From a virus (lineage: Duplodnaviria > Heunggongvirae > Uroviricota > Caudoviricetes): a stretch of DNA of 34,661 nucleotides. Every line of letters starts with the position of its first letter. The stretch's first letter is position 1. The stretch lies in the IMG/VR virus record IMGVR_UViG_2531839482_000004; one strand, given 5' to 3'. A model generated the notes under the pieces. It was not told the origin of the DNA, did no database searches, and worked only from the letters and a program-made list of their open reading frames with translations. A program made the translations under genes and the position numbers. Of the stretch, positions 1 to 25,276 are shown one piece after another.

Positions 1-307
<307 letters not shown>

Positions 308-359
308 TTAGGTGGCGAGATGCAAAAGTTAGTCAGAATGCGATTCAGGAGGTTTAAGG

Positions 360-1506: not shown

Positions 1507-1508
1507 CA

Positions 1509-2037: not shown

Positions 2038-2056
2038 AAGAGGGGGTTATTAAGGC

Positions 2057-2419
2057 GTGAATACCTACAGCATCACATTCCCCTGGCCTCCGAGCAATAA
2101 TCGCTATTACCGCCATAATCGCGGGCGCACGCACGTCAGCGCAGAGGGGCAGGCATACCGCGATAACGTCGCCCGAATCATTAAAAACGCAATGCTGGAT
2201 ATCGGCCTGGCTATGCCTGTGAAAATCCGCATTGAGTGCCACATGCCGGATCGCCGTCGCCGTGACCTGGATAATCTGCAAAAAGCCGCTTTTGACGCAC
2301 TCACTAAAGCAGGTTTCTGGCTGGATGATGCTCAGGTCGTTGATTACCGCGTTGTGAAGATGCCTGTTACCAAAGGTGGGAGGCTGGAACTGACCATCAC
2401 CGAAATGGGGAATGAATGA
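2057..2419 (+). CDS. rusA: Holliday junction resolvase RusA
   Basis: 120-aa translation [50 protein letters not shown]... is essentially the E. coli DLP12 RusA sequence. Confidence 0.92.
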
Positions 2420-2642
2420 TGTTTGAGTTTAATATGGCAGAACTTCTTCGCCACCGCTGGGGGCGTCTGCGCTTATATCGTTTCCCCGGTTCTGTTTTGA
2501 CCGATTACCGAATACTGAAGAATTACGCCAAAACACTGACAGGAGCAGGAGTATGAAGTCAGAGATAACAATCAACTAATACTGTTTTGTTGATTTTTGC
2601 TTGTAATTGGCGTTCTGGTCTGAGTTTTTGTGGAGTAAGTTG

Positions 2643-3026
2643 ATGCGTGATATTCAGATGGTTCTTGAGCGTTGGGGAGCGTGGGCGGCTAATAATCATG
2701 AAGATGTGACCTGGTCGTCCATTGCCGCCGGTTTTAAGGGATTAATTCCTTCAAAAGTAAAATCTCGCCCGCAATGTTGTGACGATGACGCGATGATCAT
2801 TTGCGGGTGCATGGCCCGTCTGAAAAAGAACAACAGCGATTTGCACGATTTATTAGTAGATTATTATGTAGTCGGTATGACATTCATGTCACTGGCAGGG
2901 AAGCATTGCTGCTCTGATGGTTATATCGGGAAAAGGTTACAAAAGGCTGAGGGCATAATTGAAGGGATGTTAATGGCATTAGATATCCGGTTAGAGATGG
3001 ATATCGTTGTTAATAACTCTAATTAA
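2643..3026 (+). CDS. quuD: late-gene antiterminator Q (DLP12 QuuD-like)
   Basis: [34 protein letters not shown]...[18 protein letters not shown] matches recalled QuuD; ATG 2643 has GGAG 9 nt upstream (track ORF starts earlier at TTG 2607). Confidence 0.85.
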
Positions 3027-3052
3027 TACGCCAATTATTTACTAAAAGTTAT

Positions 3053-3084
3053 TAAAAATGGGGCGTTGAAACGCCCCCAAAAAT
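3053..3084. terminator. GC stem-loop flanked by A/T tracts between Q and nmpC
   Basis: ggggcgttgaaacgcccc (3060-3077) with aaaaat upstream; on the minus strand the hairpin is followed by a T-rich run, consistent with termination of the leftward nmpC transcript. Confidence 0.4.
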
Positions 3085-3111
3085 AAAGGGTAATATATAA
3101 CAGAAGGTTTG

Positions 3112-3200
3112 TATAGTTAGAAGCAAGGTTGTGCTTCTAAAGGAAGTGGCTTGAGGGAGCCACTTATATGTTGGGGAGGCAAAGCCTCCCACAACATATC
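3112..3200. repeat. cluster of three stem-loops immediately 3' of nmpC
   Basis: Inverted repeats agaagca...tgcttct (3115-3136), agtggc...gccact (3137-3157) and atatgttggggaggc/gcctcccacaacatat (3166-3197). Confidence 0.4.
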
Positions 3201-3214
3201 TTTTAGTAATCAAA

Positions 3215-4297
3215 TTAGAACTGGTAAACCATACCTACAGCAACGATATCATCGGTAGCAACGCCAGATGCTTTCGTGAAATCGCTCTTATCAATCAGGT
3301 TGATTTTGTAGTCAACAAAAGTGGACATATTTTTGTTGAAGTAATAGGTTGCACCTACATCAACATATTCAACCAGGTCCTGATCACCCCAAACACCCAA
3401 GTCTTTTCCTTTAGAATGCAGGTAAGCAACGGATGGACGCAGGCCGAAGTCGAACTGATATTGTGCAACAGCTTCGAAGTTTTGTGCTTTGTTGGCAATA
3501 TGGTTATTACCAAAAACAGTCATGTTCTGGGTTTCAGAATAGGTGGTGGCCAGATAGATGTTGTTCGCATCATATTTCAGACCAGCTGCCCATACTTCAG
3601 CATTTTGACCAGAAGCATTCAGACCGTTGTTACCGTAGATAACCTGATTATTAGTGCGATCAGATTTAGCATAGGTTGCACCCACGCCGAATCCTTCATA
3701 CTCATAAGTAGTTGAGAAACCGAAACCATCGCCATTAGCTTCAGTTACTTCATTTCGGTCATTTTTGCCCTGATACTGAGCTGCAAAGTTCAGGCCATCA
3801 ACCAGACCAAAGAAGTCGTTGTTACGATAAGTTGCAACACCTGTGGTGCGACCAGTCATGAATACATCTGTTTGGGTCCAGGTATCGCCACCGAATTCTG
3901 GCAGAACGTCAGTCCACGCACCGATGTCGTATGCTACACCGTAGTTACGGCCGTAATCGATTGAGCCGTAGTCACCGAATTTCAGGCCTGCAAATGCAAG
4001 ACGGGTTTTGTCTTTGGAGGAACCTTGAGATTCAGCGCGGTTGCCTTTGAATTCATATTCCCACTGACCGAAACCAGTCAGTTGATCGTTGATTTGGGTT
4101 TCACCTTTGAAGCCAAGACGGGCATAAGTAGTATCACCATCATCTGCATCATTAGAGGAGAAGTAGTGCTTAGCATTAACTTTCCCGTACAGATCCAGCT
4201 TGTTACTGTCTTTATTATAAATTTCAGCTGCCTGAGCAGACATCGCCATCAGTACTGATGCAGCTACAGCAGAAATTGCCACTGTTAATTTTTTCAT
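3215..4297 (-). CDS. nmpC: outer membrane porin, OmpC/NmpC family (intact)
   Basis: 360-aa ORF with signal peptide [23 protein letters not shown], porin motifs and C-terminal ...VGMVYQF; opposite strand to the phage late genes, as for nmpC in DLP12. Confidence 0.9.
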
Positions 4298-13235: not shown

Positions 13236-13257
13236 GGCCGCCTGTGCGGCTTTTTTT
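13236..13257 (+). terminator. stem-loop plus T-tract between D and E
   Basis: gccgcctgtgcggc followed by ttttttt; weak terminator or attenuator-like structure. Confidence 0.35.
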
Positions 13258-13270
13258 ACGGGATTTTTTT

Positions 13271-13546
13271 ATGTCGATGTACACAACCGCCCAGCTGCTG
13301 GCGGCAAATGAGCAGAAATTTAAGTTTGATCCGCTGTTTCTGCGTCTCTTTTTCCGTGAGAGCTATCCCTTCACCACGGAGAAAGTCTATCTCTCACAAA
13401 TTCCTGGACTGGTAAACATGGCGCTGTACGTTTCGCCAATTGTTTCCGGTGAGGTTATCCGTTCCCGTGGCGGCTCCACCTCTGAATTTACGCCGGGTTA
13501 TGTCAAGCCGAAGCACTTAGCATGGCTTTCTGAGGCTTTCGTGTAG
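13271..13546 (+). pseudogene. E: major capsid protein gpE, N-terminal fragment (codons 1-82) interrupted by island insertion
   Basis: MSMYTTAQLLAANEQKFKFDPLFLRLFFRESYPF...TPGYVKPKH matches lambda gpE 1-82, then reads into island DNA (LAWLSEAFV*) and stops at 13546. Confidence 0.92.
13506..13515 (+). repeat. attL core AGCCGAAGCA (left island junction inside E)
   Basis: Identical 10-mer occurs at 24486-24495 at the other junction; sequence outside the pair is contiguous lambda E. Confidence 0.75.
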
Positions 13547-13678
13547 TTGCTGGTTTTTACACTTAATCTTTTGATAATAAAGAATAAGTTTATCTGGCGC
13601 TTTCACTGAATTTTCCTCGTTATCTGTGTGTTGCAATCATCTCTGTATTGCAGCTTGTATTGCTTTTTGGGGCTAAAA

Positions 13679-14914
13679 ATGGCTGGCGAGAACAAACTGA
13701 GCGACAAAGCGCTTAAAGGATATCTGGGGAAACCCAGAGAAAAGCAGATCACCATTGCTGATGGAAAGGGGCTTTCTATTCGTGTGAGTACTAAAGGGGC
13801 TGTGAGCTTTGTTTTCTTCTACAGGTTAGCAGGTGGCCGGGCTGCTCCGGTCTGGCTAACGTTGGGTAAATATCCTGATATGTCACTCAAACAGGCAAGG
13901 GAAAAGCGCGACGAGTGCCGTGGTTGGTTGGCTGACAAACGTGATCCGCGTATCCAGATTAAGATTCAGGCTGAAGAACGCTTAAAGCCGGTCACAGTGG
14001 AGGATGCACTAAATTACTGGTATGAAAATTACTGTAAGGTGCGTCGTAAAACTCATGCTGTAACGCTTGGCAGATTTCGAAAGCATATCTTTCCCTATAT
14101 CGGTCATTTGCCCGTAAATGACACTCACCTATATGAATGGCTGGACTGTTTTGACCGAATTAAACGTAATGCACCAGTTATGGCGGCGTATGTTTTTTCT
14201 GACACTAAATTAGCTCTTCGTTTTTGTCGGGTACGCCAGTACGCGACGTGTGATGCTTTAAAGGATTTGCGCATGAGTGATGTGGGGCAGATTGCAGGTA
14301 AGCGGGATCGGGTTCTGGATGAAGCCGAACTGGGCCAGCTCTGGAAGGCAATTTTTGTCGAGCCTGATTTAAAACTAATGTCTGAATACACGCGAAAAAT
14401 GTTTGTGCTTTGTACAGTATTTGGATGTCGAATGAGTGAAGCCCGATTATCTGAATGGAGTGAATGGGATCTCGAAAGTTGGGTTTGGACTGTACCAAAA
14501 GATCACTCAAAAACTGGTGTTGAAATCGTCAGACCAGTACCTGAAATTCTACGACAGTGGGTAACGGATGTTCACGAAGAGACAAAACATACTGGTTATG
14601 TGCTGGGAAGTCTGCGAATTAGAGAAAGCGTAAGCAAGATTGGGGGGAAAATCGGTAAACGTTTGGGCCATGAAAAACAATGGTCACTACACGACCTTAG
14701 AAGAACGCTATCTACTCATCTAAGTGATCTCGGTGTTGAATTTTATGTAGTAGAACAACTGTTAGGCCATGCGCTACCTGGCGTGGCAGGGGTTTACAAC
14801 AGGAGTACGTTTATGGCTAAAAAACTGGATGCTCTGGAACTCTGGACTACATATCTCAATAGCATCGCAGCTGCTGATTCAAAAGTGACAATCCTCAAAC
14901 AAAAGGCTGGTTAA
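13679..14914 (+). CDS. int: tyrosine integrase, P4-type with N-terminal arm-binding domain
   Basis: N-terminus LSDKALKGYLGKPREKQITIADGKGLSIRVS...LGKYPDMSLKQAREKRDE (DUF4102-like); C-terminal catalytic region with HDLRRT and LGH...GVY motifs; first gene inside the left junction. Confidence 0.88.
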   Translation: MAGENKLSDKALKGYLGKPREKQITIADGKGLSIRVSTKGAVSFVFFYRLAGGRAAPVWLTLGKYPDMSLKQAREKRDECRGWLADKRDPRIQIKIQAEERLKPVTVEDALNYWYENYCKVRRKTHAVTLGRFRKHIFPYIGHLPVNDTHLYEWLDCFDRIKRNAPVMAAYVFSDTKLALRFCRVRQYATCDALKDLRMSDVGQIAGKRDRVLDEAELGQLWKAIFVEPDLKLMSEYTRKMFVLCTVFGCRMSEARLSEWSEWDLESWVWTVPKDHSKTGVEIVRPVPEILRQWVTDVHEETKHTGYVLGSLRIRESVSKIGGKIGKRLGHEKQWSLHDLRRTLSTHLSDLGVEFYVVEQLLGHALPGVAGVYNRSTFMAKKLDALELWTTYLNSIAAADSKVTILKQKAG

Positions 14915-14915
14915 C

Positions 14916-15143
14916 ATGAAAAAAATGGCAATTGTTGATAAAAAGGGTCTGGAGTACATTCCTAACATTGACCGAATGATCCGTGAGAAAGAATGTCGGG
15001 AGCTAACCACTCTTGCGAACAGCACACGCTGGAAGCTGGAGAAGGAAGGAAAATTTCCTAAGCGGATCAAGATTGGCGCTACTGCGGTAGCTTATCGTCT
15101 CTCCGAAGTTCAGGCATGGATTAAGGGAGAATGGAGTAATTAA
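14916..15143 (+). CDS. alpA: AlpA-family HTH regulator / excisionase-like protein
   Basis: 75 aa; ATG overlaps int stop; ...IKIGATAVAYRLSEVQAWIKGE resembles the AlpA HTH pattern; position immediately after int as in E. coli PICIs and P4-like elements. Confidence 0.75.
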   Translation: MKKMAIVDKKGLEYIPNIDRMIREKECRELTTLANSTRWKLEKEGKFPKRIKIGATAVAYRLSEVQAWIKGEWSN

Positions 15144-15161
15144 ATAATAAGGTATTTCGAT

Positions 15162-15983
15162 ATGACAATGTGTGTTATTTGGAAGTCAGTTGATGGAACT
15201 ATTTATGCCGCCACAGATTCTCGACTGAGCTTTGAAGAAAAAAAGTTAGATCGTTGCGTTAAAATATCCCGAATCACATGTCTTTTACATGAGCCTAGTG
15301 ATGCAGTAGATACAAGTAAGATACTTGTTGATAAGCGTGAGATTGCTACATTATTCTGTGGAGGCTTTACAAATGCCTATATCATCAAGGAGAGCCTTAC
15401 TGAGATTTTAAATAAAATAGTTCTCATGAGGGAATACTCCGGCGTGCCCTTTTCGGAAATTATAGATATAGCGTTTTCCATTTATGAAGATACATCAAGA
15501 GATATGTTTGCATCATTAATGGACCAACGATTTGGATGTGTTTTTTACATGATAAGTTACTGCCCTGTATATAAGGAAATGCAAGCATTTAAATTTGAAT
15601 TCAAAATAAATGAAAACGGTATTAACTATTATAAATCTAAACTTTTTGAAGATCGTAACTATGAGGTTAATGGAAGTGGGGTGAGGTACTTGGAACAAAA
15701 TCATCGTATTGAAGATCTAGTTAAAGAAGCTTATCAGAAGAATAAATACACACCACTTCTAGATATACTTGAGTCCGTAATTAATGATGACGACTGTGAC
15801 TCTGTTGGAGGTGCAATGCAATACATTTCATGTAATAAAGATAGACTAAAATTGTGTTGTCATATGTTATTTGAAGAAAATAATCATAAGTATATGAAAG
15901 CTGGGGTGGACTTAAATGAACTCAATGAGAAGTTTATACCTTCTGGTTTGTTTTTTGAGACAGATGCAATCATCAAAAGATAA
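15162..15983 (+). CDS. hypothetical protein, AT-rich cargo gene (possible Ntn-hydrolase-like fold)
   Basis: 273-aa ORF with markedly lower GC than flanks; N-terminus MTMCVIWKSVDGTIYAATDSRL loosely resembles the proteasome/HslV-type N-terminal nucleophile region, with Cys where HslV has Thr. Similarity is weak and unverified. Confidence 0.5.
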   Translation: MTMCVIWKSVDGTIYAATDSRLSFEEKKLDRCVKISRITCLLHEPSDAVDTSKILVDKREIATLFCGGFTNAYIIKESLTEILNKIVLMREYSGVPFSEIIDIAFSIYEDTSRDMFASLMDQRFGCVFYMISYCPVYKEMQAFKFEFKINENGINYYKSKLFEDRNYEVNGSGVRYLEQNHRIEDLVKEAYQKNKYTPLLDILESVINDDDCDSVGGAMQYISCNKDRLKLCCHMLFEENNHKYMKAGVDLNELNEKFIPSGLFFETDAIIKR

Positions 15984-16292
15984 ACGATAACCGACTTTGA
16001 TTGTGATAATTTTATCAAGATTATGATGAATGCTGCAGTATATCTAACATGCTGCAGTTAACTCAATTTGTATTATCGCTAATATTTTTAATAACAAGGA
16101 TGTTTATTGCTTTTTTATTTGAGAGTGAACGTCTAACCATTGTTGTTCTTAGTTCTCATGGAGAGATTGGAGCTTAAAATACGCAATGTTTTGAAATCAG
16201 CGCAACTATATTCCGTAATTGTTCTTTGTCGTTCTTGCGTGGCACGGTGATACACCTCTCATGTCGGTTGTTTTTTTGAACGCAGAAACATA

Positions 16293-16320
16293 AAACAAAG
16301 GCGACCGGGATGGTCGCCAG
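16293..16320 (-). terminator. rho-independent terminator of the leftward island operon
   Basis: ggcgaccgggatggtcgcc hairpin; on the minus strand it is followed by tttgtttt, downstream of the 16387 stop. Confidence 0.5.
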
Positions 16321-16386
16321 TGGCATAACACTAAAATTGAGCGTATTCAGAATACCAAGTGTCGGCTGGTGGACAATGGAATCAGT

Positions 16387-16743
16387 TCAATATTTAGGTG
16401 GTTCAACAAGAGCGTTTATCATTGCTCTCAAATTATCGCGAACACTTATCCAAGTCTGTTCTGCTCGTTCTAACTCATTAGTGTACAGCTTTAATGTTTT
16501 ATCTATGCCATATGTGGCTATTAAATTTATAGCTTCTTGTAACTTTTCGGGATTATTCCTTCTTGGGGGAGTGAATATACCGCGGATTTTTCCGGTAATT
16601 AAAGCTTTACGGTGTCTACATAGAATACCTTTACTTCCTGCTGGACAATTACAAGTCATGATTAGCGAGCCAGAATCGTTTGATACAGTGACTATGTATA
16701 CATCCAAACTACTGCTACTTGTTGCGAAGAATTCGTATTTCAT
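16387..16743 (-). CDS. SWIM-type zinc-finger protein, hypothetical
   Basis: 118-aa ORF with CxC-x7-CxH motif (TCNCPAGSKGILCRH); AAGGAG 8 nt upstream of ATG 16743; preferred over the overlapping plus-strand ORF 16310-16750. Confidence 0.6.
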   Translation of the reverse strand: MKYEFFATSSSSLDVYIVTVSNDSGSLIMTCNCPAGSKGILCRHRKALITGKIRGIFTPPRRNNPEKLQEAINLIATYGIDKTLKLYTNELERAEQTWISVRDNLRAMINALVEPPKY

Positions 16744-16770
16744 GTGTTAGCTCCTTGACTTCAATTATTC

Positions 16771-16965
16771 TTATCCTTTTGGTTCAATACCGCGCCGTAG
16801 CAGCTCTTTGCGCCCTAACTCTTTAAGCCAGTTGGCAAGGCTTACCCCATCGTTACTGGCTTCGTTATCAAACTGCTCCTTCAATTCAGGAACTATGCGC
16901 ATATGGAACGGTGGGGCCTTTCCTGTGCCTTTTTGTTTTTTATCGCGCTTAATAACCGTTGACAT
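16771..16965 (-). CDS. small ribbon-helix-helix-like DNA-binding protein (candidate island regulator)
   Basis: 64 aa; ...FHMRIVPELKEQFDNEASNDGVSLANWLKELGRKEL has a beta-strand/helix/helix pattern like Arc/MetJ-type proteins; start codon abuts a palindromic operator-like site. Confidence 0.55.
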   Translation of the reverse strand: MSTVIKRDKKQKGTGKAPPFHMRIVPELKEQFDNEASNDGVSLANWLKELGRKELLRRGIEPKG

Positions 16966-17026
16966 GTGTACACCTATAGCGTTATGTTTTTATTCGATAG
17001 GTGTACACCTTAACATGTGTGCATTT
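16959..17026. promoter_or_regulatory. divergent control region with inverted repeats (operator candidate)
   Basis: GTGTACACCTAT (16966-16977) and its exact reverse complement ATAGGTGTACAC (16997-17008), 19-bp spacer; related ACATGTGT boxes at 16962 and 17014; TTGACA at 16959-16964. Confidence 0.5.
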
Positions 17027-17300
17027 AAAAACGCAACGCCCCGCAGTGCGGGAACACATGCAGGGCGTCTAACCACCAACGATAGCAACAGTATCGAGGT
17101 AGCTATGAGAAATCATCCCACACACCCGCAAGGGCGGGACTCGCACAACCTGAATAAATTCACTTGGCGCTTTATCGCCCTGAGTGCGGCTAAACCGCGC
17201 ATGCTTACCATCGTGGTCACCAGCGAGCAGGAAGACCGCCAGCAATCCCCAACTGGCTGCGTGATGATATTCGCCGCCCGTATTCGTCAGGAGGTGTGCC

Positions 17301-17525
17301 ATGAATGATCTTTATTTTAAAGTGCTGACACATGCTGAAAACGCGCTCGTTTGTGGCAAAAATATGCGAGAAATCTTATCAACCTGGCTTGATGGGACAA
17401 CAAATGCGGAACACGATGAACGGGATGCTAATTTAGCTGGAGCGTTAATTACGTTACTTGATCCTGTCATCAAAGAGCTGGATGAAGCTATAAAAATACA
17501 CGACCAGAGCTATACCGGAGAATAA
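17301..17525 (+). CDS. hypothetical protein
   Basis: 74-aa ORF, AGGAGG 8 nt upstream of ATG; first gene of the rightward operon leading to the primase. Confidence 0.6.
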   Translation: MNDLYFKVLTHAENALVCGKNMREILSTWLDGTTNAEHDERDANLAGALITLLDPVIKELDEAIKIHDQSYTGE

Positions 17526-17528
17526 AAA

Positions 17529-17816
17529 ATGAAAAATAAATTTTCTGGCTTTATTGCCAGCGGTCAAACTCATTCAAAAATCAGCCTTGGGGATATTTTC
17601 AAAGACAGCTATGGCTATCGGGTAAAGATTATTTCGGTTGATGATCGTCGTGTCTCTTATTTGCGTGATGGTTATGATTTTGAATGTGTTATGCCGCGTC
17701 AGCAGTTCGAAAGAGATTTCATTCTGGTAAAAAATTGCAAGACAGATAATCAGAGGCGTGCCGCAGGCTATATCCGTAAAATTCGGGCAATGTTAGTTGC
17801 CGGAGGTAACAAATGA
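17529..17816 (+). CDS. hypothetical protein
   Basis: 95-aa ORF, GGAGA upstream; tightly coupled to the primase gene (ATGA overlap). Confidence 0.6.
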   Translation: MKNKFSGFIASGQTHSKISLGDIFKDSYGYRVKIISVDDRRVSYLRDGYDFECVMPRQQFERDFILVKNCKTDNQRRAAGYIRKIRAMLVAGGNK

Positions 17817-19633
17817 AACGTGCTCCGAACTTAAAATACCAACCGCGCGACAAAATGACGGAAGTCATCATTTTTGCTGGCAGTGATGCCTGGAGCCATG
17901 CAAAAGAATGGAATGAATGGGCAGGTAAGCATATTGCAGCAGATGATACACCACCAGTCATTCTGGGTACGGAACAACTGGAAAACCTGGATGATATGCA
18001 AATTATCGATGAAGGCCGTCATTATGTGCGTGTTTATCGTGCCGGAAAGATTGCAGAGAAAAGTCTGACGAAGGTTGCGACATTACTTGCTATTGCAGGC
18101 GTAAAGGAAGCACGTTGTTACCGTAGCTTTGTTGATCGAGAGCCTGAAGACTGGACTCCGCGCCTTGTCGGCCTAAAAGCTGAAGCGGAGCATGGGGAAA
18201 GTCTGGTGATTGAACTGCCAGTGAAGAAGGCAGAGCGCAAAAATGACGAGCGTGCTTCATCTTTGGCGTTGAATCAGATGGGGGCCAGCCAGCGCGGTGA
18301 AGTTCTCCTTGCACATTACGGCGGTGAACTGGCAATCAATGCCGACTCTGACACCGTTCATCATTACAACGGCGTTGTATGGGAGCCGGTTCAGGATAAA
18401 GAGTTACAGCGTGCTATGGCGCAGATTTTCATTGATGCGGAGATCAGCTATTCGCAGAACGCTATTAAATCGGCGGTAGATACCATGAAGTTAAGTTTGC
18501 CTGTAATGGGGAATACAGCCCGTAACCTGATTGGATTCAGTAACGGGGTATTTGATACCAGAACTGGTAATTTTCGGGAGCATAACAAAAACGACTGGTT
18601 GTTAATTGCCAGTGAATTACCTTTCAGCCCACCAGCAGAGGGGGAAACGCTGGCAACACATGCGCCGAATTTCTGGAAGTGGTTGCGCCGTTCGGTGGCT
18701 GAGAATGACCGCAAGGCAGATCGCGTACTGGCGGCATTATTCATGGTGCTGGCGAACCGGTACGACTGGCAGTTATTCATTGAGGTAACAGGGCCGGGGG
18801 GAAGTGGTAAAAGTGTGATGGCGGAGATTTGCACCATGCTGGCGGGTAAGGCTAATACAGTATCAGCAAGCATGAAGGCGCTGGAAGATGCAAGGGAACG
18901 TGCGTTAGTGGTTGGCTTTTCGCTGATTATCATGCCGGATATGACCCGCTACGCTGGTGATGGGGCAGGGATTAAGGCCATTACAGGCGGTGACAAGGTG
19001 GCAATTGACCCGAAACACAAAGCCCCCTATTCAACGCGTATTCCGGCAGTAGTGCTGGCGGTTAACAATAACGCCATGTCATTCAGTGACCGCAGCGGGG
19101 GGATCTCACGTCGTCGGGTGATATTCAATTTTTCGGAAGTTGTACCGGAGAACGAACGCGATTCGATGCTGGCGGAAAAAATAGAAGGTGAGCTGGCGGT
19201 AGTGATTCGTCATCTGCTTACAAGGTTTGCTGATCAGGACGAAGCCAGACGCCTGTTATATGAGCAGCAGAAATCTGAAGAAGCACTGGCGATAAAGCGA
19301 GAGGGGGATTCGCTGGTGGACTTCTGCGGTTATCTCATGGCATCGGTAATGTGTGATGGCCTGTTAGTGGGTAATGCTGAAATTGTGCCATTCAGCCCAC
19401 GCAGGTATCTCTATCATGCCTATCTGGCTTATATGAGGGCACATGGGTTTGGTAAACCTGTAACACTGACGCGCTTCGGTAAAGATATGCCGGGGGCAAT
19501 GGCGGAATATGGCAGGGGGTATATGAAACGGAAAACGAAGCACGGTTTGCGTTCAAACGTGACACTGACGGAGGAATCAGAAGACTGGATGCCATCATGT
19601 GTATCGGTCACTAATGACGATAGCAAAAATTAA
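17813..19633 (+). CDS. primase/helicase-type replication protein (P4/PICI pri-rep family, D5-like NTPase)
   Basis: 606 aa; Walker A GPGGSGKS; overall architecture like P4-family primase C-terminal/helicase proteins; GGAGG RBS. Confidence 0.8.
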   Translation: MKRAPNLKYQPRDKMTEVIIFAGSDAWSHAKEWNEWAGKHIAADDTPPVILGTEQLENLDDMQIIDEGRHYVRVYRAGKIAEKSLTKVATLLAIAGVKEARCYRSFVDREPEDWTPRLVGLKAEAEHGESLVIELPVKKAERKNDERASSLALNQMGASQRGEVLLAHYGGELAINADSDTVHHYNGVVWEPVQDKELQRAMAQIFIDAEISYSQNAIKSAVDTMKLSLPVMGNTARNLIGFSNGVFDTRTGNFREHNKNDWLLIASELPFSPPAEGETLATHAPNFWKWLRRSVAENDRKADRVLAALFMVLANRYDWQLFIEVTGPGGSGKSVMAEICTMLAGKANTVSASMKALEDARERALVVGFSLIIMPDMTRYAGDGAGIKAITGGDKVAIDPKHKAPYSTRIPAVVLAVNNNAMSFSDRSGGISRRRVIFNFSEVVPENERDSMLAEKIEGELAVVIRHLLTRFADQDEARRLLYEQQKSEEALAIKREGDSLVDFCGYLMASVMCDGLLVGNAEIVPFSPRRYLYHAYLAYMRAHGFGKPVTLTRFGKDMPGAMAEYGRGYMKRKTKHGLRSNVTLTEESEDWMPSCVSVTNDDSKN

Positions 19634-19644
19634 ACTTATGGAAT

Positions 19645-19800
19645 AACTGTTCACCAAACTATTCACCGTTCACCTTTTTGATTATTTATTGAGCTTCAAG
19701 GGTGAACAGTGGTGAACAGTTGGTGAATAGTTTTTGTGAAACTGTTCACCCATTAACATTATGAATTAAAAGAGAAAATATCAAAAGGTGAACAGGTGAA
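19645..19800. repeat. iteron cluster, candidate island origin of replication
   Basis: About nine copies of GGTGAACAG / CTGTTCACC (and GGTGAAT variants) in both orientations around an AT-rich core (19756-19786), immediately downstream of the primase gene. Confidence 0.75.
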
Positions 19801-19846
19801 GGGTTAAAACGCAAAAATTTTAATTTACTGCTGTGAGATAAAGCCT

Positions 19847-20092
19847 ATGACAGCGAAGCACACAAAAAAATCACAATCGCACGCCCTTGATTTGACGGAA
19901 CACTGGTTAAGGGTGTCGATAAAAATCATCGACCGCAACGCCGGGGAAGGATACGCGAAAGCACATCCCGAACTGATTAGCGCATTCATGACAACGGCGG
20001 CTGCAAACTTTGCCACTCTGACCGAACGGGAGATTGCTGAAGCGGAGGAAGTGACAACAATCAATATTAAGTCCGGAGAGCAGGCAGCATGA
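19847..20092 (+). CDS. hypothetical protein
   Basis: 81-aa ORF between the origin and the ssb-like gene; no family recognised. Confidence 0.5.
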   Translation: MTAKHTKKSQSHALDLTEHWLRVSIKIIDRNAGEGYAKAHPELISAFMTTAAANFATLTEREIAEAEEVTTINIKSGEQAA

Positions 20093-20538
20093 CGGCGCAA
20101 ATATCAGTTTACGGGCGGTTGGTGGACGACCCGCAGACAAAACAGACCAGCAAGGGCACCCCCATGACGCTGGCGCGTATGGCGGTATCACTGCCCTGCA
20201 GTCAGTCGGATGACGGTCAGGCGACGATGTGGTTATCTGTCCTGGCGTTTGGCAGACAAGCCGACGCGCTGGCAAAGCATCACAAAGGCGAACTCCTGAG
20301 CGTGGCGGGTAATATGCAGGTGAGCCAGTGGACTGGACAGAACGGTGAAACGCGGCAGGGCTGGCAGGTTATCGCAGACAGCGTAATCAGTGCGCGAACG
20401 GTGCGACCGGGCGGCAAAAAAGGTCAACAGGGTCAGGCTACTGACGCACTGAACAGAGCAAAACAACAGGTAGATCAGCAAGGAAGCCATCCACCAGTGG
20501 GAGATAATGAGCAATGGGGAGATGATATTCCGTTTTAA
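20089..20538 (+). CDS. ssb: single-stranded DNA-binding protein (SSB-like)
   Basis: 149 aa; OB-fold-like N-terminus, Gly/Gln-rich linker, C-terminal acidic tail ...WGDDIPF as in SSB proteins. Confidence 0.75.
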   Translation: MTAQISVYGRLVDDPQTKQTSKGTPMTLARMAVSLPCSQSDDGQATMWLSVLAFGRQADALAKHHKGELLSVAGNMQVSQWTGQNGETRQGWQVIADSVISARTVRPGGKKGQQGQATDALNRAKQQVDQQGSHPPVGDNEQWGDDIPF

Positions 20539-20755
20539 ATATTGCCAATAAAAAAGGCCGGAAAAAAATAAATTTTCCGGCATGCTACATAAATCCCGAC
20601 CAAAGGGAGTGAAGATATTAACACTAATTATCCGCGCTGAAGTTGTTATCCCAAAACTTTATACAACATTGCACTCGGTTGCATGTATTCGCATGACAAA
20701 TATCGGTGATAGCATATATCCACAATTATTTTTAATGAATGCAAAGAGGATGCGT

Positions 20756-21796
20756 ATGGTTGATTTATATTCGCCTACCCAGCTTGTACAGGTGGTTAAT
20801 GCTGTAGATGTACAAAAACAACTAAATGCGTTGTTTACCAGTTTGTTTTTTACTCGCTCGGTAATGTTTGAATCGCGCGATATTATTCTTGATACAATCG
20901 ACGATCCAAATATCCCAATTGCAGCGTTTTGTTCTCCTATGGTGGGTAGTAAAGTTTCACGTGACGAAGGGTACGAATCAAAAACAATTCGTCCAGGCTA
21001 TATGAAGCCGAAAAGCAGCATTGATCCAAATAAGTTAGCTGTGCGCCCTGCTGGTGTATCACCTGAGCAATACAATGCTTTTGGAGCGCGTAATATTAAA
21101 GTTAAACAGGCGATTGTAAATCAGGCTAAATCTATTCGTGCACGTATTGAATGGCTTGCCGTTCAGGCAATCACAACGGGGAAAAATATCATTGAGGGCG
21201 ATGGTATTGAACGTTATGAGCTGGACTGGAATATTAAACCACAAAATATCATCACTCAGTCTGGCGGTGCTGAGTGGTCAGGTAAGGATAAAGAAACTTT
21301 TGATCCAAATGATGATATTGAGAGCTACGCAGAATTTAGTGAGGGCGTCACTAATATCATCATTATGGGCGGTAATGTATGGAAGAAATACCGTTCATTC
21401 AGAGCGATAAAAGAGGCTCTGGATACCCGTCGTGGTTCTAATTCCGAACTGGAAACGGCCCTTAAAGACCTTGGTGATTCGGTGAGTTTTAAAGGGTATA
21501 TGGGCGATGTTGCGATTGTTGTATACAGCGGGCGTTATACCGACGAGGACGGAACTGAAAAACATTTCCTTGATCCTGATTTGATGGTGCTTGGCAATAC
21601 GGCTCTTCAGGGGATTGTCGCCTATGGCGGTATTCAGGATCCGGAGCTAATCCGAATGGGGCTGACTAAAGCCGAACTTGCACCGAAAAACTATATTGTG
21701 CCTGGTGATCCGGCTATTGAATATGTGCAGACACATTCAGCACCACAGCCAATACCGGCCCGCATCAATCGTTTTGTTACCGTTCGCATTGGCTAA
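20756..21796 (+). CDS. island-encoded major capsid protein, divergent paralog of lambda gpE
   Basis: 346 aa; shares RPGYMKPK, NIITQSGGAEWSGKDKETFDPNDDIESYA, ALDTRRGSNSELETALKDLG, AIVVYSG, MVLGNT with helper gpE but is diverged throughout; AGAGGA RBS 6 nt before ATG 20756. Confidence 0.88.
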   Translation: MVDLYSPTQLVQVVNAVDVQKQLNALFTSLFFTRSVMFESRDIILDTIDDPNIPIAAFCSPMVGSKVSRDEGYESKTIRPGYMKPKSSIDPNKLAVRPAGVSPEQYNAFGARNIKVKQAIVNQAKSIRARIEWLAVQAITTGKNIIEGDGIERYELDWNIKPQNIITQSGGAEWSGKDKETFDPNDDIESYAEFSEGVTNIIIMGGNVWKKYRSFRAIKEALDTRRGSNSELETALKDLGDSVSFKGYMGDVAIVVYSGRYTDEDGTEKHFLDPDLMVLGNTALQGIVAYGGIQDPELIRMGLTKAELAPKNYIVPGDPAIEYVQTHSAPQPIPARINRFVTVRIG

Positions 21797-21805
21797 GGGG
21801 GAGCA

Positions 21806-22147
21806 ATGGCTACTCATTACACTGAACTCATGGCTGGCACTGAAGCACTGGTGACTACGCTGGGGATATTTTCAGCTAATAAAGGGGTAATTCCTGCATT
21901 TACGCCACTGATGCAGGAAGATGCAACAGGTGCACTGGTGGTATGGGATGGTTCGAGCGTAGGTAAAGCGGTTTATGTTTCCGCTGTACAAATCGACACC
22001 GCGAAAAAAACACAGGCTCAGGTCTATAAGACAGGTGTCTTAAATGTTGATGCTCTGAACTGGCCTGAGTCTGTAAAAGAACTGTCAGTAAAGATTGCAG
22101 CGTTTGTTGGCTCAGGTATTTCTGTTCAGCCGCTGGCTCGTGTGTAA
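21806..22147 (+). CDS. island-encoded decoration protein, divergent paralog of lambda gpD
   Basis: 113 aa; shares TPLM, LVVWDG, YKTGV, WPE, AAFVGSGISV with gpD; lies downstream of the capsid gene (order E-like then D-like, opposite to lambda). Confidence 0.75.
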   Translation: MATHYTELMAGTEALVTTLGIFSANKGVIPAFTPLMQEDATGALVVWDGSSVGKAVYVSAVQIDTAKKTQAQVYKTGVLNVDALNWPESVKELSVKIAAFVGSGISVQPLARV

Positions 22148-22158
22148 AGGGGGATACA

Positions 22159-22542
22159 ATGCAGAATGATTACAATGACCTTAAGCCAATTGCCGAAATG
22201 ATGTACCCGAATCCAGCTGTAGAGGAATTAAAAGCTATCGCTGACAAAATGTGTTTAAGCGAGCGCCTTGTTGATATGAATCAGGTGATGGAAATTACAA
22301 CCCTGAGTCGGCGTACACTGCTAAACCTTGAGGCTAGTGGAGAGTTCCCGGAGCGTGTGCAGGTTACGGAAGGGCGTAAGGCCTGGTATTTAAGTGAAGT
22401 GATCGACTGGATAAATAATATTCCTCGCGCTTCTGAATATTGCCGCGTACCTGTCCCAAAAAAGCCAGATGCGGCGCTATGCCTCAAGATTGAGCGTGTA
22501 CGCCGCAATGCACGGGATGGTCGCTATAAGCTGATTGGTTGA
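22159..22542 (+). CDS. AlpA/MerR-like HTH protein with N- and C-terminal extensions
   Basis: 127 aa; core MEITTLSRRTLLNLEASGEFPERVQVTEGRKAWYLSEVIDWI fits the AlpA-type HTH pattern. Confidence 0.6.
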   Translation: MQNDYNDLKPIAEMMYPNPAVEELKAIADKMCLSERLVDMNQVMEITTLSRRTLLNLEASGEFPERVQVTEGRKAWYLSEVIDWINNIPRASEYCRVPVPKKPDAALCLKIERVRRNARDGRYKLIG

Positions 22543-22565
22543 TGAAATTAGGGCCCGCTCTGGCT

Positions 22566-22787
22566 GGCGGGTCCTTTCCGGCGATCTGACAGGCTACGGG
22601 GCGTCAGGCGCGCAGTTTTTCGCTATTTGTGAAAATTTTCCTGTTTAAGGCGTTTCCGTTCTTCTTCGCCGTAACTTAATGTTTTTATTAAAAACACCCC
22701 CTAAAAAGAAAGGAAACGACAGGTGCTAAAAACAGGCTTTTTGGCCTCTGTCGTTTCCTTTCTCTGGTTTTGTCCGTGGAATGAACA
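22566..22787 (+). other. island cos site (cosQ and cosB conserved, cosN divergent)
   Basis: Aligns base-for-base with helper cos 7107-7326, but the cosN position reads GGGCGTCAGGCG (helper GGGCGGCGACCT), with further changes just downstream. Confidence 0.8.
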
Positions 22788-22853
22788 ATGGAAGCCAACA
22801 AAAAGCAGCTGGCTGACATTTTCGGTGCGAGTATCCGTACCATTCAGAACTAG
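22788..22853 (+). pseudogene. Nu1-paralog N-terminal segment ending in an in-frame amber codon (codon 22)
   Basis: MEANKKQLADIFGASIRTIQN then TAG where helper Nu1 has TGG (Trp). Confidence 0.7.
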
Positions 22854-22865
22854 CAGGAGCAGGGA

Positions 22866-23339
22866 ATGCCCGTTCTGCGAGGCGGTGGCAAGGGTAATGA
22901 GGTGCTTTATGACTCTGCCGCCGTCATAAAATGGTATGCCGAAAGGGATGCTGAAATTGAGAACGAAAAGCTGCGCCGGGAGGTTGAAGAACTGCGGCAG
23001 GCCAGCGAGGCAGATCTCCTGCCAGGGACTATTGAGTATGAACGCCATCGACTTACGCGTGCGCAGGCCGACGCACAGGAACTGAAGAATGCCAGCGAAA
23101 CAGGTGAGGTAATTGACACTGCATTTGCGACTTATGCTTTGTCGAAATTAACTGGGGAAGTTGGAGCAATCATTGATAGTCTTCCACTTGCGATCTGTCG
23201 ACAGTTTCCTGGCATGGAAAAACGGTATCAGGACTTCATTAAGATGGAGGTCAGTAAAGCATTTATTCGAGCTTACCAGATCTCAGATAACATTCCAGAT
23301 ATGGCTGAAAGGTATATCAAGGATAATCAGCGAAGTTAA
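22866..23339 (+). CDS. N-terminally truncated terminase small-subunit paralog (Nu1 residues 27-end; divergent C-terminal domain)
   Basis: Starts at the codon equivalent to Nu1 Met27, where a GAA->GAG change creates a GGAG Shine-Dalgarno 6 nt upstream; first ~80 aa near-identical to Nu1, last ~75 aa replaced by AT-rich divergent sequence. Confidence 0.7.
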   Translation: MPVLRGGGKGNEVLYDSAAVIKWYAERDAEIENEKLRREVEELRQASEADLLPGTIEYERHRLTRAQADAQELKNASETGEVIDTAFATYALSKLTGEVGAIIDSLPLAICRQFPGMEKRYQDFIKMEVSKAFIRAYQISDNIPDMAERYIKDNQRS

Positions 23340-23445
23340 AACAAATGAAACCATAGGTAGGAAGAGTGCTTAGGTGGTTCTTTGTTGCTTAAAAGTCGCC
23401 AGTAAAACTGGCGATAGATTTTATTTGTCAAAAGCATTTGACCTT

Positions 23446-24351
23446 TTAAGGTAGTGGTACTATGGATATTTTTCTGTCGTTCCCAAATGAACTTTTAAAT
23501 AATTTCGCTCTTGGATACATCTTAACTAGTGATGCGACTTCATCGAACTCGCTGGCATCAAAAAGAGGACCAAGTATTACAGATTTTAACTCAAAAGGGT
23601 GAAATTTTAAGTCGCTATATTGACCAGTGCTATTTGGCCTAGCGTAGGTTGAAATTCTCCACTCTCTTTCATATGCCCATTCTTCTGTTTTTATGAATAT
23701 TATCTCATTATTGATATATTCAATTGACTTATTGTCTGGCATGAAAAGCAACTCGGCCATCCCTTCAGCAGTGTGAGTTAGAGGCATTTCATCTGTGTAT
23801 TTCATAGGTTTGGCTATTAACCAAGCGCTATCCAGAAAGTCTACACAATCAAATTCGATAACTATACCTTTATATTTATCGGCATAGTGATTCCACATAG
23901 GAGTGATTATAGGGCTCTCAGATAAACACAAAATCCTTCTGTTATTAAGCATTCCTCGCCAGACATCTTTCATTTCTTGTATTGCCGCAGGAGCGCCAAT
24001 CCCAACTGGTGGAATGTTTACCATTTCTTGAAATCTTTCAATTAATCCTGCGGGTATGCCTAAAGGAAATGACTTTTGGAAATCACTTAGCATTGTTCTA
24101 ATTCTAGGGTTTAAATTTTGTATGTCTTCTCTGGGGGTAATCAACTCCGCTATTAACTTGCGGGCTAAAGCTTTGCCAATATTAATTTCGTTAATACCAG
24201 GCATAACTTCTCTTGGAACATCAAAAGGGTCATTAAATAGGACCGGAGAACTCCATCTAAGGCTGCATGAATCAAGAACAATTTTCGCGGTATTCAACGA
24301 CATATACTTATAAAATGTTGAGCGTTCATGCATTCTGTTGGGTGAGCGCAT
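23446..24351 (-). CDS. hypothetical protein, DUF2971-like, AT-rich cargo gene
   Basis: 301 aa; N-terminal FYKYMSL...LRWSSPVLFNDPFD and WAYEREWRI motifs as recalled for DUF2971 proteins; low GC; GAGGA RBS; last gene before the right junction. Confidence 0.55.
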   Translation of the reverse strand: MRSPNRMHERSTFYKYMSLNTAKIVLDSCSLRWSSPVLFNDPFDVPREVMPGINEINIGKALARKLIAELITPREDIQNLNPRIRTMLSDFQKSFPLGIPAGLIERFQEMVNIPPVGIGAPAAIQEMKDVWRGMLNNRRILCLSESPIITPMWNHYADKYKGIVIEFDCVDFLDSAWLIAKPMKYTDEMPLTHTAEGMAELLFMPDNKSIEYINNEIIFIKTEEWAYEREWRISTYARPNSTGQYSDLKFHPFELKSVILGPLFDASEFDEVASLVKMYPRAKLFKSSFGNDRKISIVPLP

Positions 24352-24485
24352 AGATTCCTCTTGTTAAATGAGTGATGGTTTTCATCCATGTATTGCACGT
24401 TGTATTGCATTCAAGGATTTTCCATTTCAATTCTATAGCTAAAACGTAATCAAATCATTCACATCCTTTCATATTTGACTCATGT

Positions 24486-24495
24486 AGCCGAAGCA
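24486..24495 (+). repeat. attR core AGCCGAAGCA (right island junction)
   Basis: Identical to 13506-13515; E coding sequence resumes in frame immediately afterwards. Confidence 0.75.
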
Positions 24496-25276
24496 TGAGG
24501 TGAATCCGCAGATGACCCTGCGTCGCCTGCCGGATGAAGATCCGCAGAATCTGGCGGACCCGGCTTACCGCCGCCGTCGCATCATCCTGCAGAACATGCG
24601 TGACGAAGAGCTGGCCATTGCTCAGGTCGAAGAGATGCAGGCAGTTTCTGCCGTGCTCAAGGGCAAATACACCATGACCGGTGAAGCCTTCGATCCGGTT
24701 GAGGTGGATATGGGCCGCAGTGCGGCGAACAACATCACGCAGTCCGGCGGCACGGAGTGGAGCAAGCGTGACAAGTCCACGTATGACCCGACCGACGATA
24801 TCGAAGCCTACGCGCTGAACGCCAGCGGCGTGGTGAATATCATCGTGTTTGATCCGAAAGGCTGGGCGCTGTTCCGTTCCTTCAAAGCCGTCAAGGAGAA
24901 GCTGGATACCCGTCGCGGCTCTAATTCCGAGCTGGAGACAGCGGTAAAAGACCTGGGCGAAGCGGTGTCCTATAAGGGGATGTATGGCGATACGGCGATC
25001 GTCGTGTATTCCGGACAGTACGTGGAAAACGACGTCAAAAAGAACTTCCTGCCGGACAACACGATGGTGCTGGGGAACACTCAGGCACGCGGTCTGCGCA
25101 CCTATGGCTGCATTCAGGATGCGGACGCACAGCGCGAAGGTATTAACGCCTCTGCCCGCTACCCGAAAAACTGGGTGACCACCGGCGATCCGGCGCGTGA
25201 GTTCACCATGATTCAGTCAGCACCGCTGATGCTGCTGGCTGATCCTGATGCGTTCGTGTCCGTACAACTGGCGTAA
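24486..25276 (+). pseudogene. E: major capsid protein gpE, C-terminal fragment (codons ~80-341)
   Basis: ...KHEVNPQMTLRRLPDEDPQNLADPAYRRRRIILQNMRDEE... to ...FVSVQLA matches lambda gpE; preceded in frame by a TAG from island DNA. Confidence 0.92.

What the first reader, a model, noticed from the sequence alone, without database searches (positions are those of the whole stretch)
23446..24351. DUF2971-like AT-rich gene at the island's right end, opposite strand
This is a second compositionally atypical cargo gene, placed between the packaging module and attR and transcribed convergently. Its motifs (FYKYMSL, LFNDPFD, WAYEREWRI) match what I recall of DUF2971, a family of unknown function; function unknown.
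Basis: inference. Interest (0 to 1): 0.55.

Follow-up and report, generated by a model that had tools for sequence, protein, structure and literature searches.

The report
Satellite-borne DUF2971 ADP-ribosyltransferase-like defence gene
The AT-rich reverse-strand gene is a real DUF2971 protein with an ADP-ribosyltransferase fold, sitting in a swap-in slot of a phage satellite where related satellites carry other anti-phage genes, so it is most likely an untested single-gene phage-defence toxin and not a new kind of system.

Summary
A 301-aa ORF lies at 23446-24351 on the minus strand. Its GC is 0.377, against 0.44 for the island and 0.57 for the flanking prophage. It matches Pfam DUF2971 above the gathering score and contains all three quoted motifs.

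The island is a known type, a helper-embedded PICI inserted in the lambda-like capsid gene E (Tommasini et al. 2023). The gene fills the attR-proximal reverse-strand slot. Relatives with the same integrase carry TIR, AbiJ-like, Mrr-like, DUF262+HEPN or unknown cassettes there. It occurs in about 32 of about 179 such E. coli islands, so it is accessory, and it is under purifying selection (dN/dS 0.07-0.15).

Best reading: a stand-alone, phage-triggered ART toxin, comparable to the validated lactococcal DUF2971 system Aristaios. Its target and trigger are unknown. It is a new member of a known kind, of moderate interest.

The parts
23446..24351 (-). DUF2971 / PDC-S31 family gene. It encodes 301 aa with a predicted ART fold and K15-Y156-E228xE230 as the candidate active site.
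24357..24364 (-). Shine-Dalgarno sequence AAGAGGAA, 5 nt upstream of the ATG at 24351. It supports Met1 as the start.
   Evidence: Read directly from the sequence. It is conserved in the Enterobacter and Klebsiella orthologs.
23395..23415 (.). GC-rich hairpin between the convergent terS and DUF2971 genes. T-runs flank it on both strands, so it is a terminator-like element.
   Evidence: Terminator scan and the sequence itself.
24389..24409 (+). Two TGTATTGCA repeats 12 bp apart, putative integrase arm-type sites of the attR arm. They lie 38 bp from the DUF2971 start codon and mark the conserved edge of the cassette slot.
   Evidence: The repeats are conserved across islands carrying six different cassettes, and cassette-specific DNA begins directly after them.
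24486..24495 (+). attR core AGCCGAAGCA, the 10-bp identity block inside capsid gene E.
   Evidence: There are exactly two copies in the window. This matches the 10-bp block reported for Eco567.11capE (PMC10111431).
13506..13515 (+). attL core AGCCGAAGCA. The island therefore spans about 13506-24495 (about 11 kb).
13627..13664 (+). Matching arm-type repeats (TGTGTTGCA, TGTATTGCA, TGTATTGCT) next to attL, upstream of int.
13628..14914 (+). Tyrosine integrase of the capE helper-embedded PICI clade. It defines the island family used for the slot comparison.
   Evidence: Pfam Arm-DNA-bind_3 plus Phage_integrase. Present in 179 of 5426 E. coli genomes.
22788..23339 (+). Island Nu1-like small terminase gene, the convergent neighbour. 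In this window it carries an amber codon at 22851-22853 (W22*).
   Evidence: phrog_57 E=9e-50. Translations and alignment against strain 95-3322.
24500..25276 (+). C-terminal part of the interrupted helper capsid gene E. The N-terminal part is at 13244-13546.
   Evidence: phrog_6020 E=1.5e-159. Pfam Phage_cap_E on the N-terminal fragment. RefSeq annotates both fragments as partial major capsid protein.

Best explanation
The gene is a stand-alone anti-phage defence cassette carried by a helper-embedded phage satellite (a capE HE-PICI).

What it encodes: a cytoplasmic enzyme with an ADP-ribosyltransferase (ART) fold. The conserved core has beta-1 FYKY, then RWSSPxxFNDPFD, then MWxHYAxxYxG, then YExEWR. 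Two variable helical inserts (residues 51-137 and 195-222) and a variable C-terminus (263-301) decorate this core.

Proposed mechanism (inferred): in the lysogen the protein is made from its own signals, on the strand opposite to helper late transcription, and is kept inactive. Infection by a competing phage is sensed, probably through the variable inserts. The core then uses NAD+ to ADP-ribosylate a target needed for phage gene expression or replication. The target is most likely nucleic acid, as for DarT and Tpt1, and otherwise a transcription or translation protein. Infection is thereby aborted, which protects the lysogen population and both resident mobile elements.

Shown here: the gene is real and under purifying selection; it belongs to DUF2971 and PDC-S31; it has an ART fold; the Tyr and ExE residues are conserved; it has no conserved partner gene; it sits in a variable slot that otherwise holds defence-type genes.

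Inferred only: enzymatic activity, the target, the trigger, the abortive outcome, and any regulation by antisense late transcription or by integrase binding at the adjacent arm sites.
For: Family membership:
- Pfam DUF2971, 40 bits against a cut-off of 22.
- PADLOC PDC-S31, E=2.5e-32, covering residues 9-289.
- All 62 aligned homologs match DUF2971.

Fold:
- The AF2 model has pLDDT 94.6 and pTM 0.86.
- The five best hits all modify nucleic acids.

Active site:
- Y16, W153, Y156, G162, K221, E228, E230 and R232 are invariant even in paralogs of 20-55% identity.
- This agrees with the published description of DUF2971 as an ART with a poorly conserved motif-I His, a strictly conserved Tyr and an ExE motif (PMC12522546).
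- Conservation is concentrated in the core segments. The inserts are variable.

Defence role by position:
- In islands with the same integrase, the same attR-proximal reverse-strand slot holds a TIR_2+DUF3298 protein, an AbiJ/Abi_C protein, an Mrr_cat endonuclease, a DUF262+HEPN pair or a 438-aa unknown.
- The conserved att arm ends just before each cassette.
- The island's left hotspot holds a PD-T7-1 homolog (E=1e-124), or a second DUF2971 type, in relatives.

Accessory status: 32-33 genomes carry the gene against 179 with the integrase.

Other contexts:
- Orthologs of 88% and 71% identity sit at the same slot in Enterobacter and Klebsiella HE-PICIs.
- Homologs of 46-62% identity lie in chromosomal islets next to HEPN_AbiV, CbtA, integrase fragments or Ogr, and the 75%-identity homolog lies next to a HipA_C gene.

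Selection: dN/dS is 0.07-0.15.

Precedent: Aristaios, a 316-aa single-gene DUF2971 protein from Lactococcus plasmids, is an experimentally validated Abi-like system. It stops Skunavirus transcription and protein production (PMC11381338, PMC13064643, PMC12967558).
Against: - There is no experimental evidence for this protein. PDC-S31 is only a candidate family.
- DUF2971 is very large (20,317 cluster representatives at E<=1e-3) and functionally heterogeneous, so sharing a Pfam domain with Aristaios is weak evidence. Direct similarity to Aristaios could not be tested because the sequence was not obtainable.
- The canonical motif-I His or Arg is replaced by Lys15, so NAD+ chemistry is not guaranteed.
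- No sequence-level match to any known ART Pfam family or PDB chain was found. Foldseek found nothing significant.
- No promoter was recognised upstream.
- There is no antitoxin, so how a toxic ART would be restrained is unexplained.
- Slot co-occupancy is guilt by association.
Confidence: 0.6

Rival explanations
1. It is a satellite-versus-helper interference factor or a life-cycle factor. On this reading the ART modifies a helper or host component (for example RNA polymerase, as T4 Alt/ModA do, or helper DNA) to bias gene expression or packaging toward the satellite, and does not defend against unrelated phages.
For: The gene lies directly next to the satellite's cos/terS packaging module and the att arm. 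Orthologs of 71-88% identity keep this exact position in Enterobacter and Klebsiella HE-PICIs. Aristaios affects phage transcription.
Against: Only about 18% of E. coli islands with the same integrase carry it. The others carry unrelated defence-type cassettes or an unknown gene in the slot. More distant homologs sit in non-satellite islets. It is on the strand opposite to the co-oriented satellite and helper late genes.
Confidence: 0.12
2. It is an addiction or stabilisation toxin, or a selfish toxin, that keeps the island in the genome. On this reading it is a toxin-antitoxin-like module whose antidote is elsewhere or within the same polypeptide, with no role in immunity.
Against: No conserved adjacent partner gene appears in any of the contexts examined. 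The cassette contains only this ORF. The slot exchanges with TIR, Abi and REase genes typical of defence.
Confidence: 0.08
3. It is a counter-defence or host-manipulating ART, or a secreted effector. On this reading it ADP-ribosylates a host defence or host-cell protein to benefit the mobile element or the bacterium in a host.
For: PMC12522546 predicts about 18% of DUF2971 proteins to be effectors. A 27%-identical paralog lies on IncF plasmids near SOS-peptidase and Hha genes.
Against: The translated N-terminus (MRSPNRMHERST...) is polar, with no hydrophobic stretch resembling a secretion signal; this was read by eye, with no predictor run. The gene occurs in commensal, animal and environmental E. 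coli. The other genes found in the slot are defence-type, not anti-defence.
Confidence: 0.07
4. It is a catalytically dead ART-fold protein (a pseudoenzyme) or uses other chemistry. With the motif-I His replaced by Lys, it might act only as an NADase, as a Tpt1-like phosphotransferase, or as a binding protein.
For: K15 replaces the canonical His or Arg throughout the subfamily. The best structural match is Tpt1, which is not a classical toxin ART.
Against: The ExE motif, Y156 and R232 are invariant, and the core is under strong constraint. Motif-I His is known to be variable in DUF2971. This rival concerns chemistry and is still compatible with a defence role.
Confidence: 0.13

Closest known systems
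Aristaios (Lactococcus plasmid pUCCL641_199; Grafakou et al. 2024, PMC11381338)
   Same: Both are single-gene proteins of about 300 aa. Both carry DUF2971 (PF11185) and a predicted ART fold. Both sit on a mobile element with no partner gene. Aristaios is validated as Abi-like and blocks phage transcription and protein production.
   Different: The host is Gram-positive and the carrier is a plasmid. Direct sequence similarity could not be measured here. The trigger and target of Aristaios are also unknown. The E. coli protein has Lys at motif I.
PADLOC PDC-S31 (phage defence candidate, single gene)
   Same: There is a strong full-length HMM match (E=2.5e-32, profile positions 5-246 of 259) and the same single-gene architecture.
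   Different: PDC families are computational candidates without experimental validation (my knowledge of PADLOC naming). No mechanism is attached.
DarT of DarTG (ssDNA thymidine/guanosine ADP-ribosyltransferase)
   Different: There is no DarT (DUF4433) sequence match and no adjacent DarG macrodomain antitoxin. There are about 110 residues of extra helical inserts and an extra C-terminal region. The motif-I residue differs.
Tpt1/KptA RNA 2'-phosphotransferase
   Different: No Pfam or PDB sequence match to Tpt1/KptA was found. Tpt1 is a housekeeping tRNA-splicing enzyme and does not share this mobile-element context. From my recollection, not checked here, Tpt1 has an RNA-binding N-terminal lobe and an R-H-R-R catalytic tetrad, neither of which was looked for in this protein.
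Eco567.11capE helper-embedded PICI (Tommasini, Mageeney & Williams 2023, PMC10111431)
   Same: The carrier island matches it. It is about 11 kb, has an integrase of the same kind, the same 10-bp identity block at codon ~80 of lambda-like gene E, its own E- and D-like genes, AlpA and a D5-type primase.
   Different: That paper defines Integration, Bro, Replication and Late zones. It does not describe the attR-proximal reverse-strand cassette slot or its defence-type content.
Defence hotspots of P4-like satellites and P2 prophages (Rousset et al. 2022, PMC9122126)
   Same: The logic is the same: a fixed position in a satellite where diverse, mostly short anti-phage systems are exchanged.
   Different: The satellite family is different (a lambda-dependent PICI embedded in its helper) and the position is different (next to attR and the integrase arm sites).

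Membership tests
Pfam DUF2971 (PF11185) | HMM match above the curated gathering score | tested here: met
   40 bits against a cut-off of 22, E=1e-9, profile positions 1-89 of 89 on residues 152-233. All 62 aligned homologs also match.
Pfam DUF2971 (PF11185) | Family-typical motifs outside the Pfam model: N-terminal aromatic-x-Y strand plus NDP(F/E)(D/E), and a C-terminal ExE-x-R | tested here: met
   Y16, N40, D41, E228, E230 and R232 are invariant in an alignment with paralogs of 20-55% identity that are annotated or matched as DUF2971.
PADLOC PDC-S31 candidate defence family | Match to the family HMMs over most of their length, with single-gene architecture | tested here: met
   PDLC04990 E=2.5e-32, profile positions 5-246 of 259. 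Four further PDC-S31 models also hit. No conserved neighbour gene appears across contexts.
ADP-ribosyltransferase superfamily | ART split beta-sheet fold | tested here: met
ADP-ribosyltransferase superfamily | Motif I His or Arg in beta-1 | tested here: not met
   The aligned position is Lys15 in 61 of 62 subfamily members. It is Gln or His in paralogs. The literature notes that this His is poorly conserved in DUF2971.
ADP-ribosyltransferase superfamily | Motif II aromatic residue (Tyr) and motif III catalytic Glu (ExE) | tested here: met
   Y156, E228 and E230 are invariant. E228-x-E230 sits at the start of strand 230-236 in the model. The assignment of motifs to residues follows PMC12522546 and is an inference, not a superposition.
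ADP-ribosyltransferase superfamily | NAD+-dependent transfer of ADP-ribose | not testable with these tools
   This needs biochemistry.
Aristaios anti-phage system | Sequence homology to pUCCL641_199 beyond the shared Pfam domain | not tested
   The Aristaios sequence was not obtainable. Only a BioProject accession is given and no supplements are held.
Aristaios anti-phage system | Abortive-infection phenotype from a single gene | not testable with these tools
   This needs a phage challenge.
DarTG toxin-antitoxin | DarT (DUF4433) sequence family membership | tested here: not met
   No Pfam hit other than DUF2971 at E<=1 for the protein or for any of the 62 homologs. No PDB sequence hit.
DarTG toxin-antitoxin | Adjacent DarG macrodomain antitoxin gene | tested here: not met
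   The neighbours are terS and attR here. No macrodomain gene appears in any homolog context.
CmdTAC (PD-T4-9) mRNA ART system | Match to the PADLOC PD-T4-9 models and a three-gene operon | tested here: not met
   Only PDC-S31 models hit at E<=1, and the cassette has a single gene.
capE helper-embedded PICI (carrier element) | Integration inside lambda-like gene E at a 10-bp identity block, with its own integrase, AlpA, primase and capsid homolog | tested here: met
   Split E gene. Core AGCCGAAGCA present twice. Integrase, AlpA, D5 primase and E/D homologs present. Matches the description in PMC10111431.

The most novel reading that the evidence does not exclude
This Lys-variant DUF2971 enzyme is a partner-less, self-restrained ADP-ribosyltransferase that modifies nucleic acid (DarT- or Tpt1-like chemistry on phage DNA or RNA). 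Its activity or expression is wired into the helper-embedded satellite's life cycle. In the lysogen it would be ON as a guard. When Q-antiterminated helper late transcription runs antisense through it, or when integrase occupies the arm sites 38 bp from its start codon, it would be silenced. This would spare the helper and satellite from their own abortive system. The attR-proximal reverse-strand slot would then be a previously undescribed, life-cycle-gated defence hotspot of HE-PICIs.
Probability: 0.15. Interest if true: 0.65.

Novelty: new member of a known kind. Interest (0 to 1): 0.4.

Why it matters
If the gene protects against phages, it would be the first tested Gram-negative member of the very large DUF2971 family (more than 20,000 sequence clusters). 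It would also be a single-polypeptide ART defence without an antitoxin. That would give a tractable E. coli model for two open questions raised by Aristaios: what triggers these proteins, and what they ADP-ribosylate.

The slot comparison also shows that helper-embedded PICIs carry an exchangeable defence cassette next to attR. That position can be mined for new single-gene systems; the 438-aa unknown found in SX45 and AF40 is one example.

If the gene does not protect, this is an ordinary annotated domain-of-unknown-function gene on a known type of satellite.

Tried and rejected
- Sequence search of the PDB with the family profile returned only noise.
- Pfam at E<=1 on all 62 homologs showed no second domain and no known ART family. 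NCBIfam gave no hit.
- tblastn against 50,697 phage genomes found only one Pseudomonas phage, at 28% identity over 56% of the query. The gene is therefore not a common phage gene.
- The promoter scan found no sigma-70-like site in the 135-bp upstream region. The two weak intragenic matches are below the number expected by chance.
- Rfam at gathering threshold found nothing in the window.
- I tested whether the island's other AT-rich cargo gene (15162-15983) is a second DUF2971, prompted by a 273-aa DUF2971 at the same place in strain SX45. It is not: there is no similarity to either protein and no Pfam or PADLOC hit.
- hhalign of the family profile against the SX45 paralog aligned only the motif II-III region, with low probability. 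A MAFFT alignment that included intermediates was more informative.
- The Aristaios sequence could not be retrieved.
- Literature searches for PDC-S31, and for DUF2971 in E. coli satellites, found nothing specific.

Full report
**1. The observation**

The window has an ATG-initiated ORF of 301 codons at 23446..24351 on the minus strand. Its translation contains the three quoted motifs: FYKYMSL (residues 13-19), LFNDPFD (38-44) and WAYEREWRI (225-233).

The gene has GC 0.377 and GC3 0.33. The island around it has GC 0.439, and the flanking prophage has 0.566 and 0.576.

The gene converges on the island's Nu1-like small-terminase gene, which ends at 23339. The 106-bp spacer holds a GC-rich hairpin (23395-23415) with T-runs on both sides.

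A Shine-Dalgarno sequence AAGAGGAA lies 5 nt before the ATG. It is conserved in orthologs from Enterobacter and Klebsiella.

A database search found 479 homologs. The best 120 are nearly all about 300 aa long and cover 98-100% of the query. Pairwise dN/dS against orthologs of 62-88% identity is 0.07-0.15. The ORF is therefore a real, constrained gene.

RefSeq calls the identical gene in strain 95-3322 as 252 aa, starting at Met50. That start removes the conserved N-terminal strand and the NDPFD motif. Met1 is conserved across orthologs while Met7 is not, so the 301-aa form is the better call.

**2. Family**

Pfam DUF2971 (PF11185) matches at 40 bits, against a gathering score of 22.

PHROGs places the protein in phrog_1762, which has unknown function. 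PADLOC-DB matches all five models of the candidate single-gene defence family PDC-S31, the best at E=2.5e-32 over residues 9-289. NCBIfam has no model for it.

A profile of 62 homologs finds 20,317 cluster representatives at E<=1e-3 in a library of 1.84 billion proteins. The full-length subfamily accounts for 645 of them at E<=1e-30.

**3. Fold and active site**

AlphaFold2 with the 62-sequence alignment gives mean pLDDT 94.6 and pTM 0.86.

- the Rhs toxins TreX and TreTu, SopF, Scabin, CARDS, pertussis-like and heat-labile toxins, a diphtheria-toxin homolog and PARP15.

My alignments agree with that description. Y16, W153, Y156, G162, K221, E228, E230 and R232 are invariant even against paralogs of 20-30% identity. 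The motif-I position is Lys15 in 61 of 62 subfamily members, Gln in a Klebsiella plasmid paralog and His (FHYT) in a paralog from strain SX45.

Conservation is concentrated in the core. About half of the positions in 1-50 and 138-194 are conserved in at least 90% of sequences. The helical inserts (51-137, 195-222) and the C-terminus (263-301) are variable. That pattern fits a fixed catalytic core with diversifying sensor or specificity surfaces, but this reading is an inference.

**4. The carrier element**

The gene lies inside an island of about 11 kb bounded by two copies of AGCCGAAGCA, at 13506-13515 and 24486-24495. These are the only two copies in the window. The island splits a lambda-like major capsid gene E into an N-terminal part (13244-13546) and a C-terminal part (24500-25276).

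The island encodes the following genes:
- a tyrosine integrase;
- an AlpA-like HTH protein;
- a DUF4222 protein and a D5-type primase;
- SSB;
- its own E-like capsid and D-like decoration genes;
- a second AlpA;
- a Nu1-like terS preceded by a cos region that is about 94% identical to the nohA/nohD regions of other lambdoid prophages.

Paired TGTATTGCA repeats, 12 bp apart, flank both ends and are probably integrase arm sites.

This is the helper-embedded PICI type described by Tommasini, Mageeney and Williams (2023). Their example is Eco567.11capE, with a 10-bp identity block at site E:Phage_cap_E_80 (PMC10111431). The context is therefore already known. That paper does not discuss this gene or its position.

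**5. Core or cargo**

The integrase is present at 95% identity or more in about 177-179 of 5426 complete E. coli genomes. The DUF2971 gene is present in 33 genomes, 32 of them full length. All copies are at least 99.7% identical and all are chromosomal.

I sampled islands with the same integrase. The same position, between alpA/terS and attR on the reverse strand, holds different cassettes:

| Cassette in the slot | Strains |
|---|---|
| TIR_2+DUF3298 protein | AR_0013, 21KM1392 |
| AbiJ/Abi_C protein | STEC711, TUM20902 |
| Mrr_cat endonuclease | SCU-316 |
| DUF262+HEPN pair | ET490 |
| 438-aa unknown | SX45, AF40 |

An alignment of the regions upstream of six cassettes shows that the att core and arm repeats are conserved. 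Cassette-specific DNA begins immediately after the second repeat.

The island's left variable region also holds defence-type genes in relatives. SCU-316 has a PD-T7-1 homolog there (E=1e-124) and SX45 has a different DUF2971.

Orthologs of the gene at 88% and 71% identity occupy the same slot in HE-PICIs of Enterobacter and Klebsiella. Homologs of 46-62% identity lie in small chromosomal islets beside HEPN_AbiV, CbtA, integrase remnants or Ogr, and the 75%-identity homolog lies beside a HipA_C gene. No neighbour is conserved across these contexts, so the gene works alone.

**6. Most likely mechanism**

I propose a stand-alone, phage-triggered ART toxin that protects the lysogen, and with it both the helper and the satellite, from competing phages.

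The precedent is Aristaios, a 316-aa DUF2971 protein from a Lactococcus plasmid. It acts as a single-gene Abi-like system and stops Skunavirus transcription and structural-protein production. Its trigger and target are unknown (PMC11381338, PMC13064643, PMC12967558).

The five best structural neighbours all modify nucleic acids. A DNA or RNA target is therefore my first guess, with modest confidence.

All cassettes in this slot face against the helper's late transcription, which the HE-PICI paper argues reads through the embedded satellite. The start codon is 38 bp from the arm repeats. Both facts suggest that expression could fall during helper induction. This is speculation and is listed as the novel reading.

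**7. Rivals**

I considered four alternatives: a satellite-helper interference factor, an addiction toxin, a counter-defence or effector ART, and a pseudoenzyme or protein with other chemistry. They are listed with their evidence in the rivals section of this report. The accessory distribution, the defence-type genes found in the slot and the invariant ExE/Tyr argue against the first three as the main role. The fourth concerns chemistry and remains open.

**8. Novelty and verdict**

The element is known, the domain family is known, and a member of the family is a validated defence gene. PADLOC already lists this subfamily as a candidate. I therefore classify the finding as a new member of a known kind.

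What this analysis adds:
- the corrected start codon;
- a high-confidence ART model with a Lys variant at motif I;
- the demonstration that the attR-proximal reverse-strand position of capE HE-PICIs is an exchangeable, defence-type cassette slot.

Interest is moderate (0.4). It is a good experimental candidate but not a surprise.

Noticed in passing
window 13506-24495: The whole island is a helper-embedded PICI inserted at codon ~80 of the lambda-like capsid gene E of its helper prophage, with a 10-bp identity block AGCCGAAGCA at both ends. This type is already described (Eco567.11capE, PMC10111431).
   Followed up: yes
window 22788-23339 (amber codon at 22851-22853): In this window the satellite's Nu1-like small terminase has a TGG-to-TAG change at codon 22 (W22*). 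The otherwise near-identical gene in strain 95-3322 is intact. This copy may make only an N-terminally truncated TerS starting at Met27, or may be defective in packaging.
   Followed up: partly
window 23446-24351; L001 14147-14905: RefSeq/PGAP annotates the identical DUF2971 gene as 252 aa (WP_001117802.1) starting at Met50. This drops the conserved beta-1 strand and the NDPFD motif. Homologs and the Shine-Dalgarno sequence support the 301-aa form.
   Followed up: yes
window 15162-15983 (+): This is a second AT-rich cargo gene (273 aa, GC 0.336) in the island's left variable region. It matches phrog_16034 (unknown function) and has no Pfam, PADLOC or NCBIfam hit. It is unrelated to the DUF2971 proteins. 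In related islands this region holds a PD-T7-1 homolog or a different DUF2971, so it is a plausible unknown defence gene.
   Followed up: partly
L002 9868-11184 (-) (strain SX45); same protein in L020 (isolate AF40): A 438-aa protein (WP_016247987.1) with no Pfam hit, and only a marginal PADLOC hit, occupies the same attR-proximal slot in two unrelated E. coli strains. It is a candidate novel single-gene defence.
   Followed up: no
window 22567-23098: The satellite's cos region and the 5' part of terS are about 93-95% identical at the DNA level to the nohA/nohD cos-Nu1 regions of lambdoid prophages in more than 4000 E. coli genomes. This is consistent with recent capture of helper packaging signals.
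   Followed up: partly
window 16387-16743 (-) and 16771-16965 (-): Two small reverse-strand ORFs lie in the left variable zone. One is SWIM-zinc-finger-like (motif CNCPAG...CRHRKAL). The other has the size and position of the gene annotated as a HicB-family antitoxin in related islands. The 146-aa plus-strand ORF that overlaps the first one looks spurious.
   Followed up: no
L001 2516-3832 (strain 95-3322): In one genome carrying the same composite, the helper prophage's S49 head protease gene is annotated as a pseudogene with an internal stop. Some helper-satellite composites are therefore decaying.
   Followed up: no
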